The notes beneath the pieces were generated by a model. It searched no databases. It saw only the letters and a list, made by a program, of their open reading frames with translations, and had not been told where the DNA came from. From a virus (Duplodnaviria; Caudoviricetes): 43,698 nt of DNA. Both the position numbers and the translations under genes were made by a program. Positions 23,355-42,899 of the stretch are shown here, in pieces (positions within the stretch are counted from its first letter, which is position 1; each line of letters begins with the position of its first letter). Where the stretch lies: positions 1 through 43,698 of IMG/VR virus record IMGVR_UViG_3300020181_000003; one strand, written 5' to 3'.

Positions 23355-24617
23355 TTATGAAGCAGCGACCGTCATCGCCTTCATCGCGGCCGGGTTCTGG
23401 ACCCCGCCACCGACGCGCCGGATCGTGTAGAAGCCGACGTAAGGCTTGTTCGTCAGCGCATCGCGGATAACCCGGATGCCCATCCGATCGAGGATCAGAT
23501 AGGTTTCGGCCATGTCGCCGTAGAGCAGCGGGATCGCCGACGCCGCGATGTTCGCCATGTCGGGCATGTCCACCAGCGGGCGACCCATGAGCGTGGCCGG
23601 CTGCCCAGCCTGGTAGCTCGGCTGCCACAGGTAATTGCCCTGCCCGTCCTTCAGGAGGCGCAGCGCACCCTGCGTGTTCATGTTGCCGAAGAACCGAGCG
23701 TTGCCCTGATACTGAGACGGCAACGCATAGACGAGCTTCACGACTGCGTCGGCAGTGATCGCCGTCGCGCCCCCGCTCACCACGGTGTCGATGTCGCCCC
23801 ACGGATGCGTTGCCGCATTCGCCGCACCGGTCACGTAGGTCAGGAGGCCGTTCGGCTTGTTCGTGCCGTTGCCAGAGAGGAAGGCAATGTTCTCCTGACG
23901 ATCGAACTCCACCGCGACTTCGCGGGTCAGCCACGCCTCGATGTCGATCACGCTGTCATCAAGGAGCTGCTGGGTCACCTGCGGGTTGGCATAAATCTCG
24001 CCGTTGCCGAAGGCCAGAGGCGAGAGCTGAGGCGTGGTAGTGGCAGGACGGGAAGCCGTCTCACCAACCCAGCCGCTGCCGATCGAGCGGTCGCTGAACA
24101 GGCGGGTGAAGCCGGCCGTGCCGACTGCCTGCACTGTCGCATATTGCCGCATTGGCGAGATGAGCTTCAGCTGCTCGCTGATCGTGCGATCCCATTCGAC
24201 GGGCGCCGTATAGCCGCCGTCCGGGTTCGACCCGACCGACATCGCCGCCTGAATCTCGTTCTTGCGGACGTAAGCCTGGAATGCGCCTGTATATTCCGGG
24301 TTCTCCGGCTGCGGCTTGCTGCCGATGCCGCCGATCTTGGAGGCGGCAATCTGCCTCGCCTGCTCGTCCATAGCGGTCTGGAGCTTGCCGACCTGCTCAT
24401 TCAGCGCGTTGATCTGCTGAACGTCGAGAGGATCGACCTTCGCCTCGACAGTGTCGAGACGCTTGTCGTTCTTCTCCTGCAATTCCTTCACCGTCTTCTG
24501 GAGTTCGGCAAAGAGGGCTTTGGGGTCTGAGGCGTCGGCCCGGATGCCAAGGCCTGCGATTGCGCGCGGAAAGACCGCAGCGCCCGCCCTAAGGGCGGTC
24601 TGCTTCGTGTACTTCAT
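23355..24617 (-). CDS. Major capsid protein, HK97 family
   Basis: DGGYTAP, WVGE, LLDDS, GNGTNKPNG, KDGQGNYLWQP, RRVGG motifs. Confidence 0.97.
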   Translation of the reverse strand: MKYTKQTALRAGAAVFPRAIAGLGIRADASDPKALFAELQKTVKELQEKNDKRLDTVEAKVDPLDVQQINALNEQVGKLQTAMDEQARQIAASKIGGIGSKPQPENPEYTGAFQAYVRKNEIQAAMSVGSNPDGGYTAPVEWDRTISEQLKLISPMRQYATVQAVGTAGFTRLFSDRSIGSGWVGETASRPATTTPQLSPLAFGNGEIYANPQVTQQLLDDSVIDIEAWLTREVAVEFDRQENIAFLSGNGTNKPNGLLTYVTGAANAATHPWGDIDTVVSGGATAITADAVVKLVYALPSQYQGNARFFGNMNTQGALRLLKDGQGNYLWQPSYQAGQPATLMGRPLVDMPDMANIAASAIPLLYGDMAETYLILDRMGIRVIRDALTNKPYVGFYTIRRVGGGVQNPAAMKAMTVAAS

Positions 24618-35707: not shown

Positions 35708-35904
35708 GCTGCCCTCGCCGGGTCGGCGGGACGATAGGTCGCCATGAAGCGGCGAACCTTTGCCTCGGTTTCGGGCCACACCCGCCGTCCGGCGCGAAGC
35801 TGGCGCACGAAATGGCGGTCGTTGAGCGCCGCGTCGCCAAAAGCGGTCGGCACCATCTTGTGAGTGTCGAGGAATGCCTCGATGTCGTCGCGAAGGCTGC
35901 TCAT
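35704..35904 (-). CDS. cro: Cro-like repressor
   Basis: Small HTH divergent from cI (PTAFG..ALND..FV..LR.GR). Confidence 0.8.
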   Translation of the reverse strand: MSSLRDDIEAFLDTHKMVPTAFGDAALNDRHFVRQLRAGRRVWPETEAKVRRFMATYRPADPARAA

Positions 35905-35911
35905 TCCCGCG

Positions 35912-35994
35912 ATATTAGGTGGGATTGCTCACACCGTCAAGGTGTGATCTGTCGTCGCTATCCCGAAACCGCAGCCGTGTGTGATAGGTCCCAC
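35912..35994. promoter_or_regulatory. Lysis/lysogeny switch: PR-like promoter and operators
   Basis: Minus-strand TTGACG-N17-TAATAT; operators GTGGGATTGCTCACAC (35919-34) and GTGTGATAGGTCCCAC (35979-94). Confidence 0.8.
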
Positions 35995-36603
35995 ATGGCT
36001 AACGATGAAATGACACGAGTGCGCGAGGCTCTGCGCCGCGTGATGGATCGCAAGGGCGTTAAAGCCAAGCCGCTGTCAGTGAACGCCGGCCTCGGACCAA
36101 CCGCGGTCCGCGACATTCTCGATCGCGACGGCAGCGACGTGAAGCTGGGCACCTTGCGCAAGCTCGCTGACCAGCTCGACTCTTCCATTGAGGAGTTGAT
36201 CGGTGCGGAAGAAGTGGTGCTGTCCGGCCGTGTCGGCGCGGGTGGCAGCGTGATATTCGAAGAAGAAGCGCTTAGGACCGCACCGCGTCCGCCGGGTGCT
36301 GGCAAGGCTGTCGAGGCTCTTGAGGTGATTGGAGACTCAATGCTTCCGCGCTATTCGGAAGGCGACTTCGTCTACATCAGCCGTGCTCATGAAGGGCTTA
36401 AAGAGGAGTATTTCGGCGAGTATTGTGCCGTCAGGCTCGTCAGCGGCGAGACGTTCGTGAAGATCCTTTCCAGGGGCTCCAGACCGGGGTTCTACACTCT
36501 GCGGTCGTTGAATGCGGCCGATATGGAAGACGTAGAGGTCGAATGGGCAACTCCCATCATAGCGACCGTTTCGCGAGCTGCGCGGCGGCTGCTGGGGTAT
36601 TGA
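35995..36603 (+). CDS. cI: CI-like repressor (XRE HTH + S24 peptidase)
   Basis: HTH; VGAG cleavage site, GDSM catalytic Ser, FVK catalytic Lys. Confidence 0.92.
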   Translation: MANDEMTRVREALRRVMDRKGVKAKPLSVNAGLGPTAVRDILDRDGSDVKLGTLRKLADQLDSSIEELIGAEEVVLSGRVGAGGSVIFEEEALRTAPRPPGAGKAVEALEVIGDSMLPRYSEGDFVYISRAHEGLKEEYFGEYCAVRLVSGETFVKILSRGSRPGFYTLRSLNAADMEDVEVEWATPIIATVSRAARRLLGY

Positions 36604-38826: not shown

Positions 38827-38987
38827 TCTCGCACATCGCACCTCATGTGAAGCGCCAGCAGGCGGAGAGTAGGGCCTTCAAGCAGCCTATGTTCGTGGAC
38901 GCCCCGGGCCTTGGCGGCATGACCGGCTTACTCGTCACCCTTCTGGGGGCTGTGGTGATCGGCTTTGCTTTGGCGGGGTCGCTGTGA
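38823..38987 (+). CDS. Small C-terminal-TM protein (54 aa)
   Basis: ATGA overlap; C-terminal hydrophobic helix. Confidence 0.55.
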   Translation: MISHIAPHVKRQQAESRAFKQPMFVDAPGLGGMTGLLVTLLGAVVIGFALAGSL

Positions 38988-39439
38988 TGGCGACTCCTTC
39001 AGGCTTCGATCCTTCGCGCGTTGTGACGCAAGCTGACCGTCGCTGGTGCACACGGTTCGACCGTTCGAGCGGCTTCCTTGAAGGCAAGTGGGACAACAGC
39101 ACAGTCACCATGAAGCCTGTGCTGGAGCATCGGTTCGAGGTTGAGGGAGATACGGCGCGGCGGATTTTCGCGGAAATCGTCGCTGACCTTGATATCAGCA
39201 CGGACGCAACATGCCGGGTGTACGCTGCGATAAAGCGGGCGCTTATGAAGCCGACAGAGCCCGCGATACGTCGCGATAGCGATGGAAGCGGTGAAGCCGG
39301 CGAGACGCAGAGTGACGCGGCCGTAGGCGAGAGCGCGGACCCGAAGGGTGACGCCCAATCTCCTTCGTCCTCCTCCCCCAAATCACAGAGCCAATCCCAG
39401 GAGGATGCCCGCCGCCAACCATCGGAGAACAGGTCATGA
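38987..39439 (+). CDS. Hypothetical protein
   Basis: TGATG coupling; 3' part runs through hairpin element A. Confidence 0.6.
   Translation: MATPSGFDPSRVVTQADRRWCTRFDRSSGFLEGKWDNSTVTMKPVLEHRFEVEGDTARRIFAEIVADLDISTDATCRVYAAIKRALMKPTEPAIRRDSDGSGEAGETQSDAAVGESADPKGDAQSPSSSSPKSQSQSQEDARRQPSENRS
39279..39356 (+). repeat. Multi-hairpin element, copy A (degenerate)
   Basis: GATGGAAGC..GGCGAGAC..GCCGTAGGC GAGAGC..ACCCGAAGGGT GACGCCC. Confidence 0.65.
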
Positions 39440-39675
39440 GTGAACATCCTATCGAGCAGCCGATCCGCGCGATCGACATAGATACCATTCCCGACGTTCA
39501 GGGCGGCTATGTGGTGGGACGCAACGGCGTCACCCGCATCGAGGCCTGCCAGAAGAGCGGCATGTATTCTAACATCCCCTACGTCCGCGTCTGGAAAGGC
39601 GACGTCTGCGAGGCCGAGTTCTGCCAACACAACATCGTCGGCGTCTACTTCGGCGAGCCGGAGAACAGGTCATGA
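39423..39675 (+). repeat. 17-bp direct repeats CGGAGAACAGGTCATGA flanking one gene
   Basis: Exact copies at 39423-39439 and 39659-39675. Confidence 0.9.
39436..39675 (+). CDS. Hypothetical protein (79 aa)
   Basis: ATGA coupling; SD GGAG within the repeat. Confidence 0.7.
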   Translation: MSEHPIEQPIRAIDIDTIPDVQGGYVVGRNGVTRIEACQKSGMYSNIPYVRVWKGDVCEAEFCQHNIVGVYFGEPENRS

Positions 39676-40418
39676 CAGAAGCAGAGGAAGCGCGGATCGA
39701 TGCACTCGCAAAAGCACTTCGGCTGCTCGACTTCGCCGCCGATGAAGGCTTTCACTATGATGCAGGGGACGGCCAAGTCCTGGACGCCGCCGACGTGTGT
39801 ACCGACCTCTGTGAGGAGTATGGGATCGAGCCGGAGCCGGGCTGGTGGAGGATTATTCCCGCCCTCTCCCGCCCCGTCCAGCAGACGCAGGTAGCGGGGG
39901 AAGCGGAGGTCACGAGAGCTGATCGGGATGCACTAATAGCTCTGCATCACCACAAAGTGGCGCCGATTATTGCGGATCATCTGGAGATTTCCCTTGAGCG
40001 CAGTCGCACGGATGGCGGTGGCTGGGTAACGACCGGTCACGAGAGCTGCGCAGTCATCGATGCCGCTCGATCTGTTATCGCTTACTGCCTGGCATTGCCC
40101 GCCGCTCTCACCCCCCAGGTAGCAGGAGAGGCCGATCGGTCTACTCAGCTTGAGGAGGTTGCAGCAGCTGCTGATGCTGTTTTCCCCATCATTATCGAAA
40201 TGTTTGAGGCCTTTCCCTACGCGGAAAAGAGCGGTGATGATGAGAAGGTGACGAGGCTTCGGCAGGCTTTACGCGCCTTAGCCGCCCTTTCTCCCGATCA
40301 TGGGATGGGGGATGGGCAAGTAGGGGCGTCCCTTCGGGCAACCTGCTCTCGTCCTTCGGATCAAGCCCCTTTGGGTCTTGACGCTCCGCGCGTCGATCAG
40401 GCGCAGGGAGGACGCTGA
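39672..40418 (+). CDS. Mosaic multi-module hypothetical protein
   Basis: Modules separated by QVAGEA linkers. Confidence 0.65.
   Translation: MTEAEEARIDALAKALRLLDFAADEGFHYDAGDGQVLDAADVCTDLCEEYGIEPEPGWWRIIPALSRPVQQTQVAGEAEVTRADRDALIALHHHKVAPIIADHLEISLERSRTDGGGWVTTGHESCAVIDAARSVIAYCLALPAALTPQVAGEADRSTQLEEVAAAADAVFPIIIEMFEAFPYAEKSGDDEKVTRLRQALRALAALSPDHGMGDGQVGASLRATCSRPSDQAPLGLDAPRVDQAQGGR
40323..40398 (-). repeat. Multi-hairpin element, copy C (inverted)
   Basis: Reverse complement: GATCGACGC GCGGAGC GTCAAGA CCCAAAGGG GCTTGA TCCGAAGGA CGAGAGC AGGTTG CCCGAAGGG ACGCCCC. Confidence 0.75.
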
Positions 40419-40948
40419 TGGGATGGGGAAATTGCGGTGAGGACAGCCGTGGTCGCGCAATCGGTTACTATCACACTGCGACCTGTGATCACGCGGGTTG
40501 CGGTGAGGCGATAGACCGCGGGCTGGCGTATGCTTGTGGGGGCATGCACGGGACCGGGTGTCTTGGCGGCGACGCTCGCATCGATTGGTCTGCTGATTTT
40601 CCGTCGTGCGAAGGCTATTTCTGCGAGCAGCACCTCCGCGCTCCCGACTTGGAGCATGAAGACGGCACTGAGATATGGGCGCCTACGTATTGTCCGGCGT
40701 GCTCTTCTGAGATCGAGCGGCTCTACCGCATAGACCCCGAATATCGCGATATGTGGCCTACGTCGGCGCCACCGGTGCCCCTGCCCGATAGGGGATTGAA
40801 GCCTTTGGTCGAGACCGAAGGGCTCGATGCGCAGCACGAAAGCCCCGCAAGGCAATCGCCAGAACCCTTCCCCTCCCCCACCCAAGGAGACTCCCATGTC
40901 GATCGCACTCGATCGGAACATGCTCGACGCCCTGAACAAGGCAGGTGA
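40418..40948 (+). CDS. Cys-rich (Zn-binding) hypothetical protein
   Basis: MGWGNCG...IGY...CDH.GC...IDRGLAYACGG.H...C..YFC..H...CPAC. Confidence 0.75.
   Translation: MGWGNCGEDSRGRAIGYYHTATCDHAGCGEAIDRGLAYACGGMHGTGCLGGDARIDWSADFPSCEGYFCEQHLRAPDLEHEDGTEIWAPTYCPACSSEIERLYRIDPEYRDMWPTSAPPVPLPDRGLKPLVETEGLDAQHESPARQSPEPFPSPTQGDSHVDRTRSEHARRPEQGR
40792..40860 (+). repeat. Multi-hairpin element, copy B
   Basis: GGGATTGAAGC CTTT GGTCGAGA CCGAAGG GCTCGA TGCGCAGCA CGAAAGC CCCGCAAGG CAATCGCC. Confidence 0.75.
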
Positions 40949-41201: not shown

Positions 41202-41908
41202 CCACCATCGGCCACAACCTCCCTCCGGAACCCTTCGTTCTCATCACCGAGAGCATTGAAGACCTGCTTCTAGAGGCGAACAATCATCTCGACGGCAGCG
41301 AGATTGAGACCGAGCAACAGGAAGCCGCCGTAGCGAGCATCCTCACTCGTCTCCGTCGCGAGCTTAACGCTGCCGACGACATGCGCAAAGCCGAGAAGAG
41401 GCCGCATGACGAAGCTGCCAAGGCTGTCCAGGCAAAGTGGGCTCCCCTGCTTTCCAAGGGCGACCTGGCTGTCAACGCGGCAAAGGCGGCGCTCACCAAG
41501 TTCCTCCGCAAGCGGGAGGATGAAGCGAGGGCGGTGGCTGAAGCTGCTGCACAGGAGGCTCGGAGACAAGCCGAAGCCGCCGCCCGAGCAGCCGAGCAAG
41601 CGCGCCCGGATGATCTGGCAGGGCAAACAACTGTGCGCGTCCTGAAGGAAAGCGCCGCCGCTGCCGAGAAGGCTGCCGAGAAGGCGAGCAAGACGAGAGT
41701 ATCGGCAAAGGGCGGAGAGCGCGCCGTGTCGCTGCGCACGTCCTACACTGCCGAGATTACTGACGGCGTGGCGTTCGCCCGATGGGCTTGGGAGCACCGT
41801 CGCCCCGAGCTTCTCCAGTTCCTCGAAGAGCTGGCCGACCGCGAGTGCCGCCACGGCCCGCAGAATATCCCAGGAATCAACGTCATCACAGAAAGGAAAG
41901 CTGCATAA
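41198..41908 (+). CDS. Coiled-coil recombination-module protein
   Basis: IGHNLPP N-terminus, long helices, IPGI C-terminus; precedes the SSB-like gene. Confidence 0.7.
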   Translation: MTTIGHNLPPEPFVLITESIEDLLLEANNHLDGSEIETEQQEAAVASILTRLRRELNAADDMRKAEKRPHDEAAKAVQAKWAPLLSKGDLAVNAAKAALTKFLRKREDEARAVAEAAAQEARRQAEAAARAAEQARPDDLAGQTTVRVLKESAAAAEKAAEKASKTRVSAKGGERAVSLRTSYTAEITDGVAFARWAWEHRRPELLQFLEELADRECRHGPQNIPGINVITERKAA

Positions 41909-42510
41909 TGGCTATCATCGCATCGGACAGCGGCGGCGGCGACTTCAAGATCGTGCCGGCAGCAAATCATGTTGGCGTCTGCTCTATGGTCGTGGACCTC
42001 GGCAAACAGCGCACCGAATACATGGGGCAGTCCAAGCTCAAGCATCAGGTCTACATCGCGTGGGAATTGCCGCACGAACAGATCGAATGGACCGACAAGG
42101 ACGGGAACGAACGCAAGGGTCCGATGCGGATCGGGAAGACCTACACGGTTTCCCTCGGCAAGAACGCCGTCCTACGTGCCGAGCTTGAAAACTGGCGTGG
42201 TCGGCCATTCTCCGAAGAGGAGATCAAGGGTTTCGATATCACCCGGTTGGCCGGCGCTCCCGCCATGATCAACGTCACGCACGTCGAGAAGAATGGCCGC
42301 ACCTATGCCAACGTCGTCGGCGTGACGCCGCTGCCGAAGGGTATGGAGAAGCCGGGCCTATTCGATGCCGCGCTCGTCTATGACGATGAGCATCTATCGA
42401 CGTTCGAATATCTCCCGGAATGGCTGCAGAAGAAGGTCCAGGAGCAAGTTGTCGAAGAGAAGCCCCAGGCTTCCTACGATCGCGAGCTTGAGGATGAAAT
42501 TCCCTTCTGA
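41908..42510 (+). CDS. ssDNA-binding-like protein (acidic DEIPF tail)
   Basis: SD AAGGA; SSB-type C-terminus ELEDEIPF. Confidence 0.7.
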   Translation: MAIIASDSGGGDFKIVPAANHVGVCSMVVDLGKQRTEYMGQSKLKHQVYIAWELPHEQIEWTDKDGNERKGPMRIGKTYTVSLGKNAVLRAELENWRGRPFSEEEIKGFDITRLAGAPAMINVTHVEKNGRTYANVVGVTPLPKGMEKPGLFDAALVYDDEHLSTFEYLPEWLQKKVQEQVVEEKPQASYDRELEDEIPF

Positions 42511-42899
42511 TGTTCGCTCGCCGTTCCCTCCTAAAGCAGCGCAAGCCGCTGGCGAAGAAACGCCTGCTACCCCGCCGAGATGAAGGACGGGTGCAGCACG
42601 GCCGCGTCAAGCGCAAGCTGGCACCGACTGATGAGGAGAGGCGGCACCTGGACCGTGTAGCTGCCATGCCGTGCATTGTGACCGGCAAGCGGCCGATCCA
42701 CGTCCATCACGTCATGCACATGCCGGGAAAGTGCCAGCGGCGCGATCACCGCTTTGTCGTGCCGCTGTCTCCCGATCTGCACAACATGGGAGACCAGAGC
42801 GTCCATGCGCTTGGGGGCGAGGATGCTTTCTATCAGGTGCATGGCGTGGATTTGAGGATCGAAGCGGTAAGGCTCTGGACGGAGACGACGAGTGGCTAA
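42510..42899 (+). CDS. Ref/DUF968-like HNH-fold nuclease
   Basis: VAAMPCIVTG...VHHV...RDHRFVVPL...H....SVH. Confidence 0.7.
   Translation: MFARRSLLKQRKPLAKKRLLPRRDEGRVQHGRVKRKLAPTDEERRHLDRVAAMPCIVTGKRPIHVHHVMHMPGKCQRRDHRFVVPLSPDLHNMGDQSVHALGGEDAFYQVHGVDLRIEAVRLWTETTSG

What the first reader, a model, noticed from the sequence alone, without database searches (positions are those of the whole stretch)
39279..40880. Dispersed multi-hairpin element on both strands, built from C-GNA-G mini-hairpins: candidate folded-ssDNA system
Seen: three diverged ~70-80 bp copies, A 39279-39356 (+), C 40323-40398 (-) and B 40792-40860 (+). They share the order GATNGA(A/C)GC-[variable hp]-G(T/G)C(G/A)AGA-[hp]-GCT(C/T)GA-[hp]-CGA(A/G)AGC-[hp]-CGCC, and each is followed by C(C/A)TCCCCCA; A is degenerate in the central stem. 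That stem covaries (TCGAG/CTCGA in B, TCAAG/CTTGA in C). Most small loops are C-GNA-G: CC-GAA-GG, TGC-GCA-GCA, TCC-GAA-GGA, GCC-GTA-GGC, GC-GGA-GC, CCC-GAA-GGG. Each copy lies at the 3' end of a different ORF and is read in different frames or strands, so protein coding does not explain the conservation. Established: d(C-GNA-G) triloop hairpins are exceptionally stable in DNA but not in RNA, and are used in ssDNA signals such as N4 virion-RNAP promoters. Inference: the element works as folded ssDNA. It could be an attC-like recombination site that shuffles early-gene cassettes, a priming/ssi signal, or a tiny mobile element. It lies in the most mosaic part of the genome, just upstream of the SSB-like and Ref-like nuclease genes.
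Basis: partly seen in the sequence, partly recalled or inferred. Interest (0 to 1): 0.85.

Follow-up and report, generated by a model that had tools for sequence, protein, structure and literature searches.

The report
Folded DNA signal on travelling strands
The three repeats in this phage belong to a widespread family of roughly 90-base DNA elements, predicted to fold as a single strand into a four-way junction, that sit almost always on the strand that travels alone in plasmids and single-stranded viruses and likely tell the host where to start copying that strand back into double-stranded DNA.

Summary
A covariance model finds exactly three copies in this temperate phage (71, 59, 46 bits). 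They belong to a family with hundreds of members and no Rfam match. Loops are DNA-type: 469 of 816 are GNA triloops, 15 GNRA, no UNCG. Strand use points to single-stranded DNA: all 20 matches in microviruses and all 30 in Pf inoviruses are on the virion strand, the microviral ones beside the nick-like hairpin; 26 of 28 copies in 13 plasmids (F, R46, R388 included) are on the predicted transferred strand. Best explanation (0.5): a single-strand initiation signal, probably PriA-type. A hand-made descriptor of its core helix also hits the phiX174 primosome site, but post hoc; trained models do not. AttC-like, mobile-element and RNA readings are not supported. Function is untested. The scan's notes showed no earlier report of this sequence.

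The parts
39270..39363 (+). Copy A: degenerate member (G.G in place of the covarying core pair; central stem partly broken); inside the 3' tail of ORF 38984-39439
   Evidence: CM 45.6 bits, E 2.6e-9; sequence
40317..40409 (-). Copy C: full member on the minus strand, antisense to the 3' end of ORF 39672-40418 and just before the ribosome-binding site of ORF 40418
   Evidence: CM 71 bits, E 2e-15
40783..40868 (+). Copy B: full member; inside the 3' tail of ORF 40418-40948
   Evidence: CM 59.3 bits, E 1.3e-12; meets the core-helix descriptor
40792..40801 (+). Copy B, 5' arm of the core helix P1 (two variable pairs, G-C, A.G, T-A, covarying Y-R pair, tandem G.A, bulged A, G-C at the junction); partner 40837-40845
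   Evidence: covariation counts; the non-canonical pairs are inferred from register
40802..40836 (+). Copy B, the three other arms of the four-way junction: hairpin A 40802-40808, stem P2 with hairpin B 40809-40827, hairpin C 40828-40836
   Evidence: sequence; structure counts on alignment A2
40837..40845 (+). Copy B, 3' arm of P1
37558..43698 (+). Context: early leftward-type operon between repressor (35812-36603) and integrase (wraps 43572-1017); all three copies lie in it
   Evidence: PHROGs, gene calls
41908..42510 (+). Context only: 200-aa protein ending in an acidic DEIPF tip (resembles an SSB C-terminus, recalled); family not identified
   Evidence: phrog_862 unknown function; no Pfam; Atlas nearest named cluster DUF669 on 10% of members
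42510..42899 (+). Context only: DUF968/Ref-like small nuclease; its family is the commonest neighbour in tailed-phage loci (46 of 66) but absent from the plasmids and ssDNA phages
   Evidence: Pfam RecA_dep_nuc E 1e-4 and DUF968 E 1e-3, both under cut-off

Best explanation
The three copies are members of a family of cis-acting DNA elements predicted to fold, when their strand is single, into a four-way junction on a G.A-zipped helix, and this fold likely serves as a single-strand initiation signal at which host proteins, most likely PriA and the restart primosome, start synthesis of the complementary strand. Shown: family, covariation, DNA-type loops, strand placement, absence of a shared replicon protein. 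Inferred step 1: the fold survives SSB coating because GNA triloops and tandem sheared G.A pairs are very stable in DNA (established knowledge, recalled). Inferred step 2: a host factor reads the conserved P1 helix beside the junction, the variable hairpins being scaffold; PriA is the candidate because it is the only restart protein present in all phyla (PMC5778457) and it reads the phiX174 site. Inferred step 3: DnaB and DnaG are loaded and prime. In microviruses and Pf phages this would be a minus-strand origin or a helper to it; in plasmids a rifampicin-resistant route to convert the transferred strand; in this temperate phage, where both strands carry copies, it would let exonuclease-resected or fork-stalled single-stranded DNA in the recombination operon be refilled or restarted.
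For: Fold: in 238 hits of a pattern that left the pairing positions free (1 hit in 2.76 Mb shuffled), the core pair was Watson-Crick in 219 (T-A 113, C-G 96, G-C 10), the P2 pair in 228 (G-C 211, A-T 13, C-G 3, T-A 1), the two flanking pairs in 215 and 206; sliding partners drops pairing from 94% to 24-48%. DNA not RNA: 469 of 816 loops GNA triloops, 101 two-base TT/TC loops, 43 GNYA, 15 GNRA, no UNCG; triloop register beats an opposite-strand UNCG register 494 to 10, 4 ties. Strand: 20 of 20 matches in 19 of 80 capsid-selected microvirus loci on the virion strand, one per genome (12 of the 19 loci were new to the analysis); 15 of 17 end within 30 nt 5' of a hairpin whose loop matches the phiX174 nick site, the usual place of a single-strand origin (recalled); 30 of 38 Pf loci, all on the virion strand; 26 of 28 copies in 12 of 13 plasmids opposite to the relaxase/tra strand, and all 10 multi-copy plasmids keep every copy on one strand; 1345 of 1527 plasmids with a BLAST match are conjugative. 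PAS link: a core-helix descriptor met by 254 of 280 family members hits phiX174 once, at 2309-2350 on the virion strand in the F-G gap where the primosome site lies (PMC9865509), 0.04 expected; none in G4 or alpha3; with one mismatch it also hits the known F ssiE. Need: F conversion persists in rifampicin and uses host factors only (bioRxiv 10.64898/2026.01.09.698686).
Against: No experiment. The phiX174 match is post hoc: neither trained model finds the phiX174 or ColE1 site, ColE1 fails the descriptor, and the relaxed descriptor gives 13 hits in F, 10 with one mismatch. The two F copies lie outside the two leading-region ssi fragments listed in PMC11541004 supplement (one starts about 90 nt 3' of ssiD), so an E. 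coli ssi screen apparently did not isolate them. 61 of 80 microvirus loci and 3 of 5 further plasmids (ColIb-P9, RA3, pCTX-M3) have no match; in microviruses the slot can hold other folds or be empty, and another conserved fold lies upstream, so the element may be accessory. One plasmid (Aeromonas pB) and one GTDB locus (L420) have it on the relaxase strand. In tailed phages it is on both strands (98 antisense, 50 sense) and a need for priming there is not established. Pf loci are near-identical, so not independent.
Confidence: 0.5

Rival explanations
1. A protective fold or decoy: the Holliday-junction-like structure binds host junction proteins (RuvA, RecG, HU) or blocks single-strand exonucleases, RecA loading or an ssDNA-sensing defence, helping incoming or resected DNA survive.
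For: Perfect four-helix junction; sits among anti-defence and recombination genes in plasmid leading regions and phage early operons; multi-copy and dispensable in sister microviruses; works on either strand in tailed phages.
Against: Microvirus variants keep P1 and lose the four-way junction, so junction mimicry is not the conserved part; fixed place next to the nick-like hairpin is not needed for a decoy.
Confidence: 0.17
2. A priming signal read by something other than PriA (DnaG alone as at G4-type origins, or RNA polymerase as at Frpo), or a helper module of such a signal.
For: Same strand evidence as the best explanation; in F both copies are part of the roughly 530-bp repeat that contains Frpo; in microviruses it follows a second conserved fold.
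Against: No match to the G4 or alpha3 origin; no -10/-35-like AT-rich arms in the consensus; lies outside the mapped ssiD fragment.
Confidence: 0.12
3. A replication roadblock or template-strand terminator that delays conversion and prolongs expression from single-stranded promoters, as shown for F ssp2.
For: In F each copy lies on the 3' side of an Frpo, where the complementary-strand polymerase arrives first; precedent in bioRxiv 10.64898/2026.01.09.698686; template-strand bias in plasmids and, 2:1, in phages.
Against: A roadblock needs stability, not invariant internal-loop bases; the fold is weak by energy; no evident benefit beside a microvirus origin; the mapped F stall is at ssp2.
Confidence: 0.1
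4. An attC-like recombination site or a tiny mobile element that shuffles early genes.
For: Up to six copies within 20 kb in one phage; 289 different neighbour families; usually at gene junctions.
Against: Multi-branch fold, both orientations, single copies in microviruses; no empty site among 19 homologous flank pairs (set biased to element-bearing loci); no shared recombinase.
Confidence: 0.06
5. A structured RNA (antiterminator, leader or small RNA).
For: Sense copies lie at ORF 3' ends close to the next start; tandem G.A pairs also occur in RNA.
Against: Loop classes and register; two thirds of phage copies and the plasmid copies are antisense to the local genes; strand follows the single-stranded DNA (sense in microviruses, antisense in plasmids); no Rfam match.
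Confidence: 0.03

Closest known systems
phiX174 primosome assembly site (n'-pas)
   Same: Folded ssDNA on the virion strand in an intergenic gap; its long hairpin can be drawn in the same register as P1 (purine.G mismatch, two pairs, tandem G.A, A-T, G-C) and is followed by a GNA mini-hairpin; read by host PriA (PMC5778457, PMC8246471, passages)
   Different: No four-way junction; flanking bases differ; not found by either trained model; the new family also occurs in plasmids and dsDNA phages
Plasmid ssi signals (F ssiD/Frpo, F ssiE, ColE1 ssiA)
   Same: Short cis elements on the transferred or displaced strand; F copies adjoin Frpo1 and Frpo2; ssiE meets the P1 descriptor with one mismatch; the ColE1 origin-proximal region uses the same G.A and GNA vocabulary
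   Different: The element is outside ssiD and ssiE; no promoter arms; ColE1 fails the descriptor and the model
G4/alpha3 primase-only origin (G site)
   Same: Multi-hairpin ssDNA origin with GNA/GNNA loops
   Different: No match by model or descriptor
IncN CUP repeats and IncW long direct repeats
   Same: The R46 and R388 copies lie in the repeated leading-region units (assignment to CUP/LDR is by position and recalled)
   Different: Those repeats are described as promoters with ArdK sites (PMC5371602, passages); no ssDNA fold was mentioned in the passages seen; the 1997 CUP paper was not available
Integron attC sites
   Same: Folded ssDNA near ORF 3' ends
   Different: Single long hairpin with R/L boxes and fixed orientation (recalled); none of this holds here

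Membership tests
phiX174-type PAS | Lies on a strand that becomes single-stranded | tested here: met
phiX174-type PAS | Stable hairpin or fork-like ssDNA structure | tested here: met
   covariation; energy models not significant
phiX174-type PAS | Sequence/structure similarity to a proven PAS | tested here: inconclusive
   post hoc descriptor hits phiX174 (0.04 expected) and, with one mismatch, F ssiE; trained models and ColE1 negative
phiX174-type PAS | Stimulates PriA ATPase and supports PriA/PriB/DnaT-dependent priming on SSB-coated ssDNA | not testable with these tools
   needs bench work
Frpo/ssp single-stranded promoter | Long stem rebuilding -35 and -10 boxes; part of the mapped ssiD fragment | tested here: not met
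   consensus has no such arms; F copy starts about 90 nt 3' of ssiD
G4-type primase site | Similarity to the G4/alpha3 complementary-strand origin | tested here: not met
attC site | One long imperfect hairpin, fixed orientation to its ORF | tested here: not met
   four-way junction; 98 antisense versus 50 sense
Non-autonomous mobile element | Empty-site alleles or target duplications | tested here: inconclusive
   no empty site among 19 flank pairs, but the loci were chosen for carrying the element
Rfam RNA families | Match to a covariance model | tested here: not met
   0 matches on the window; on 20 homologous loci only a 20-bit chance match overlaps an element

The most novel reading that the evidence does not exclude
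One host-read DNA fold serves as a portable complementary-strand origin across four unrelated kinds of replicon (microviruses, filamentous phages, conjugative plasmids including F, and temperate tailed phages), and its G.A-zipped core helix is the long-missing structural code of primosome assembly sites, shared with phiX174. It would identify the rifampicin-resistant priming sites of the transferred strand and show that tailed phages seed their recombination operons with restart signals.
Probability: 0.33. Interest if true: 0.88.

Novelty: new variant of a known kind. Interest (0 to 1): 0.74.

Why it matters
How a transferred plasmid strand is primed in the recipient when transcription is blocked, where non-phiX microviruses and Pf phages start their second strand, and what PriA recognises at an assembly site are open questions. 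This family gives exact 90-base candidates in F, R46, R388 and Pf, with compensatory pairs ready for mutation. It is also one of few natural ssDNA folds supported by covariation on the scale of an RNA family. No description was found in nine searches of the open-access library; the classic ssi, PAS and CUP papers of 1980-1999 are not held there and could describe individual copies.

Tried and rejected
Rfam on the window and 20 homologous loci: nothing. Energy folding as DNA or RNA: no significant z-score, and the models do not recover the comparative fold. RNA on the opposite strand with UNCG loops: rejected by register. Exact-repeat finder: does not see the family. Trained model against phiX174 and ColE1: no match. 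A second model from eight microvirus variants: misses phiX174, G4, alpha3, ColE1, and also the window copies, so it is too narrow to decide. The idea that sister microviruses carry the ColE1-type G.A hairpin in the same slot: 3 loci do, but genome-wide counts are 6 plus versus 4 minus, so dropped. The idea that the Shigella plasmid match was an IS91/ISCR end: it is a copy cut by a Tn3-type end and resembles the partial R751 copy; dropped. Empty-site search: none. Cognate protein: DUF968/Ref-like (46 of 66 loci) and ERF (39 of 66) are common neighbours but at no fixed distance, no control set of element-free phages was run, and they are absent from plasmids and ssDNA phages. Anti-correlation with plasmid-encoded primases (ColIb-P9, RA3, pCTX-M3 lack the element; F, R46, R388 have it): primase status is recalled and pTer331 seems a counter-example, so not used as evidence. 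RSF1010 and the 2010 hairpin review were not available. No RNA-seq, structure or complex prediction was run.
Full report
Window. A complete 43.7-kb phage record with terminal repeat: HK97-like head, long tail, integrase, repressor and O-like initiator. Relatives by DNA are Caulobacter and Sphingopyxis phages, over short stretches only. The three copies lie in the early operon between repressor and integrase.

Observation. No Rfam family matches the window at E up to 1. Single copies do not fold better than shuffles as DNA (z +0.95, -1.20, -1.68) or RNA (+0.75, -1.58, -0.63).

Family. Pattern scans of IMG/VR gave about 130 and 122 stretches for two variants, 203 distinct elements by a strict pattern and 238 by a pattern that left the pairing positions free, against 1 in 2.76 Mb of shuffled sequence. 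A GTDB scan stopped at 6 of 64 parts; 23 of its 122 loci held a full element, from Alpha-, Beta- and Gammaproteobacteria and Bacteroidales. Of 11 such loci examined, 8 had plasmid, ICE or phage-type genes nearby, 2 defence-type genes, 1 nothing named. BLAST with one plasmid copy matched 1527 of 72,556 plasmids, 1345 typed conjugative.

Fold. Anchored counts on the 238 hits: core pair of P1 Watson-Crick in 219 (T-A 113, C-G 96, G-C 10); P2 pair in 228 (G-C 211, A-T 13, C-G 3, T-A 1); flanking pairs in 215 and 206; part of the remainder are mis-registered pattern hits. The scan patterns fixed the 5' base of the core pair and both P2 bases, so the G-C, A-T and C-G variants come from neighbouring copies that were not selected for. 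On a 90-sequence alignment the structure P1 / hairpin A / P2 with hairpin B / hairpin C closes a four-way junction without unpaired bases: 93.6% of cells paired, 11 of 17 pairs change on both sides, slid partners 24-48%. That alignment was chosen for four pairs being Watson-Crick, so one search is the unbiased count for those. In register, P1 holds an A.G mismatch, a tandem G.A/A.G and a bulged A, and P2 an A.G; these are inferred. A fourth hairpin (GNA/GNNA in 146 of 231) and a closing GCG/CGC helix (204 of 273) complete it. The model built from this finds exactly three copies in the window.

DNA, not RNA. Among 816 hairpin slots in 272 of 280 elements: 469 GNA triloops, 52 TT and 49 TC two-base loops, 43 GNYA, 42 other triloops, 15 GNRA, no UNCG, 60 unassigned. 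Because C-GNA-G reads as UNCG on the other strand, both registers were compared: triloop stem longer 494, UNCG 10, tie 4. That these loops are stable in DNA specifically is established knowledge, recalled.

Strand. Microviruses: five small contigs with the element encode a microvirus capsid and Rep. Of 80 loci then fetched by capsid alone, 19 had matches (20 rows, 14 at E up to 0.013), all on the virion strand, one per genome; 7 of the 19 were known before and three of them are in the training set. Fifteen of 17 examined end within 30 nt upstream of a hairpin whose loop matches the annotated phiX174 nick site. The slot also holds P1-only variants, unrelated folds, or nothing, and a second conserved fold lies upstream. 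Inoviruses: a Pf1-like prophage has it just before the gene-5 ssDNA-binding gene, and 30 of 38 Pf loci searched (38 of 80 fetched; 80-100% identical in Zot) have it, all on the coding strand. Plasmids: taking the transferred strand as the one opposite the relaxase or tra genes (a rule that fits F by PMC9849209 and is assumed for the rest), F 2 of 2, R46 3 of 3 (two weak), R388 2 of 2, R751 1 partial, pTer331 2, pALIDE201 3, p5E34 4, pIPM1H6 1, and plasmids of P. syringae 2, Serratia 3, Burkholderia 1 and Klebsiella 2 follow it; Aeromonas pB (2 copies) does not, though its copy examined is antisense to the neighbouring genes. That is 12 of 13 records, 26 of 28 copies; two close relatives of p5E34 and R46 were not counted. 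One GTDB locus with a relaxase is a second exception. ColIb-P9, RA3 and pCTX-M3 have none. Tailed phages: of 182 elements, 98 antisense, 50 sense, 24 mixed context, 10 near an edge (p 1e-4, home-made gene caller, non-independent loci). So the strand is sense in ssDNA phages and antisense in plasmids: it follows the single-stranded DNA, not the transcript.

Reader. No gene is common to F, R46, microviruses, Pf and the tailed phages, so a host factor is inferred. In tailed phages the neighbours are DUF968/Ref-like (46 of 66), ERF (39 of 66), integrase, NinB and SSB, at no fixed distance.

Link to known signals. F's copies (58084-58175 and 63472-63563, minus) end the two repeats that contain Frpo2 and Frpo1, about 470 bp upstream of the first genes, but lie outside ssiD and ssiE as listed in the supplement of PMC11541004. 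After noticing a resemblance by eye, a descriptor of P1 that frees the paired bases was written; 254 of 280 family members meet it. It hits phiX174 once, 2309-2350 on the virion strand ahead of gene G, where PMC9865509 places the primosome hairpin; expected 0.04; G4, alpha3 and ColE1 give none; single probable chance hits appear in R46, RA3, F and pALIDE201. With one mismatch allowed it hits F ssiE, among 13 hits in F, and adds one hit each in ColE1, phiX174 and G4. Trained models do not reproduce the phiX174 link, and the second model also misses the window copies. The link is a lead, not a membership proof.

Mechanism. Best reading: an ssi-type priming signal, probably for PriA, which PMC5778457 calls the only restart protein conserved in all phyla and which loads DnaB at the phiX174 site. 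The bioRxiv study of F conversion reports that rifampicin does not abolish complementary-strand synthesis, leaving room for such a signal, and also shows that a leading-region fold (ssp2) can be a roadblock, which is a rival. For the window's phage the benefit (refilling resected DNA or restarting forks in the recombination operon) is inference only.

Literature seen. Passages: PMC11541004 (plus supplement rows; one supplement was an unreadable scan), PMC9849209, PMC12672017, PMC9865509, PMC5778457, PMC8246471, PMC4129139, PMC3167613, PMC7690428, PMC5371602, PMC7414963, PMC5935869, PMC6854812. Parts 1-2 of 4 and passages: bioRxiv 10.64898/2026.01.09.698686 (its supplements are closed and may show deletion limits around the F copies). 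Not seen: the original PAS, ssi and CUP papers. Nine searches showed no description of this family in listings. The scan's notes had no look-alike sequence and two unrelated GNA-hairpin findings.

Verdict. Real, widespread, apparently undescribed folded-ssDNA family; works like an ssi/PAS by placement; membership of the PAS class untested. New variant of a known kind; interest 0.74.

Noticed in passing
L266, L508-L581, intergenic region after the capsid and following gene: A second conserved fold (GGAGCC ... TGGTGAG) precedes the slot in at least 31 of 76 microvirus loci; it may be the more constant part of the minus-strand origin.
   Followed up: no
L509, L510, L513, L516, L532, L534, L554, L573 (same slot): A third family of folds with GNA loops and G.A pairs replaces the element in sister microviruses; L524 and L527 hold a fourth.
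   Followed up: partly
L501:18176-18280 and 23564-23660 (F, minus strand): Further conserved GNA-type hairpins lie between Frpo and the element in both F repeats.
   Followed up: no
L503:3683-3784, L502:20076-20208 and 24082-24214: Pf and R388 share a sub-variant in which the tandem G.A region reads differently and hairpin C is longer.
   Followed up: no
window 40418-40948 and 38984-39439: These ORFs run through the elements; only residues 1-77 of the 40418 protein match PHROG families, so the tails are probably read-through of non-coding DNA.
   Followed up: partly
window 41908-42510: Unclassified phage protein family with an acidic C-terminal tip like that of SSB (recalled); could recruit host SSB partners such as PriA.
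   Followed up: partly
window 39418-39439 and 39654-39675: Two consecutive small ORFs end in the same 16-base sequence (same last five codons and overlapping start), a possible short recombination linker.
   Followed up: no
L373:3811-3880: A copy truncated by a Tn3-type end travels between strB and tetR(A) in many resistance plasmids and explains most 19-nt BLAST hits.
   Followed up: partly
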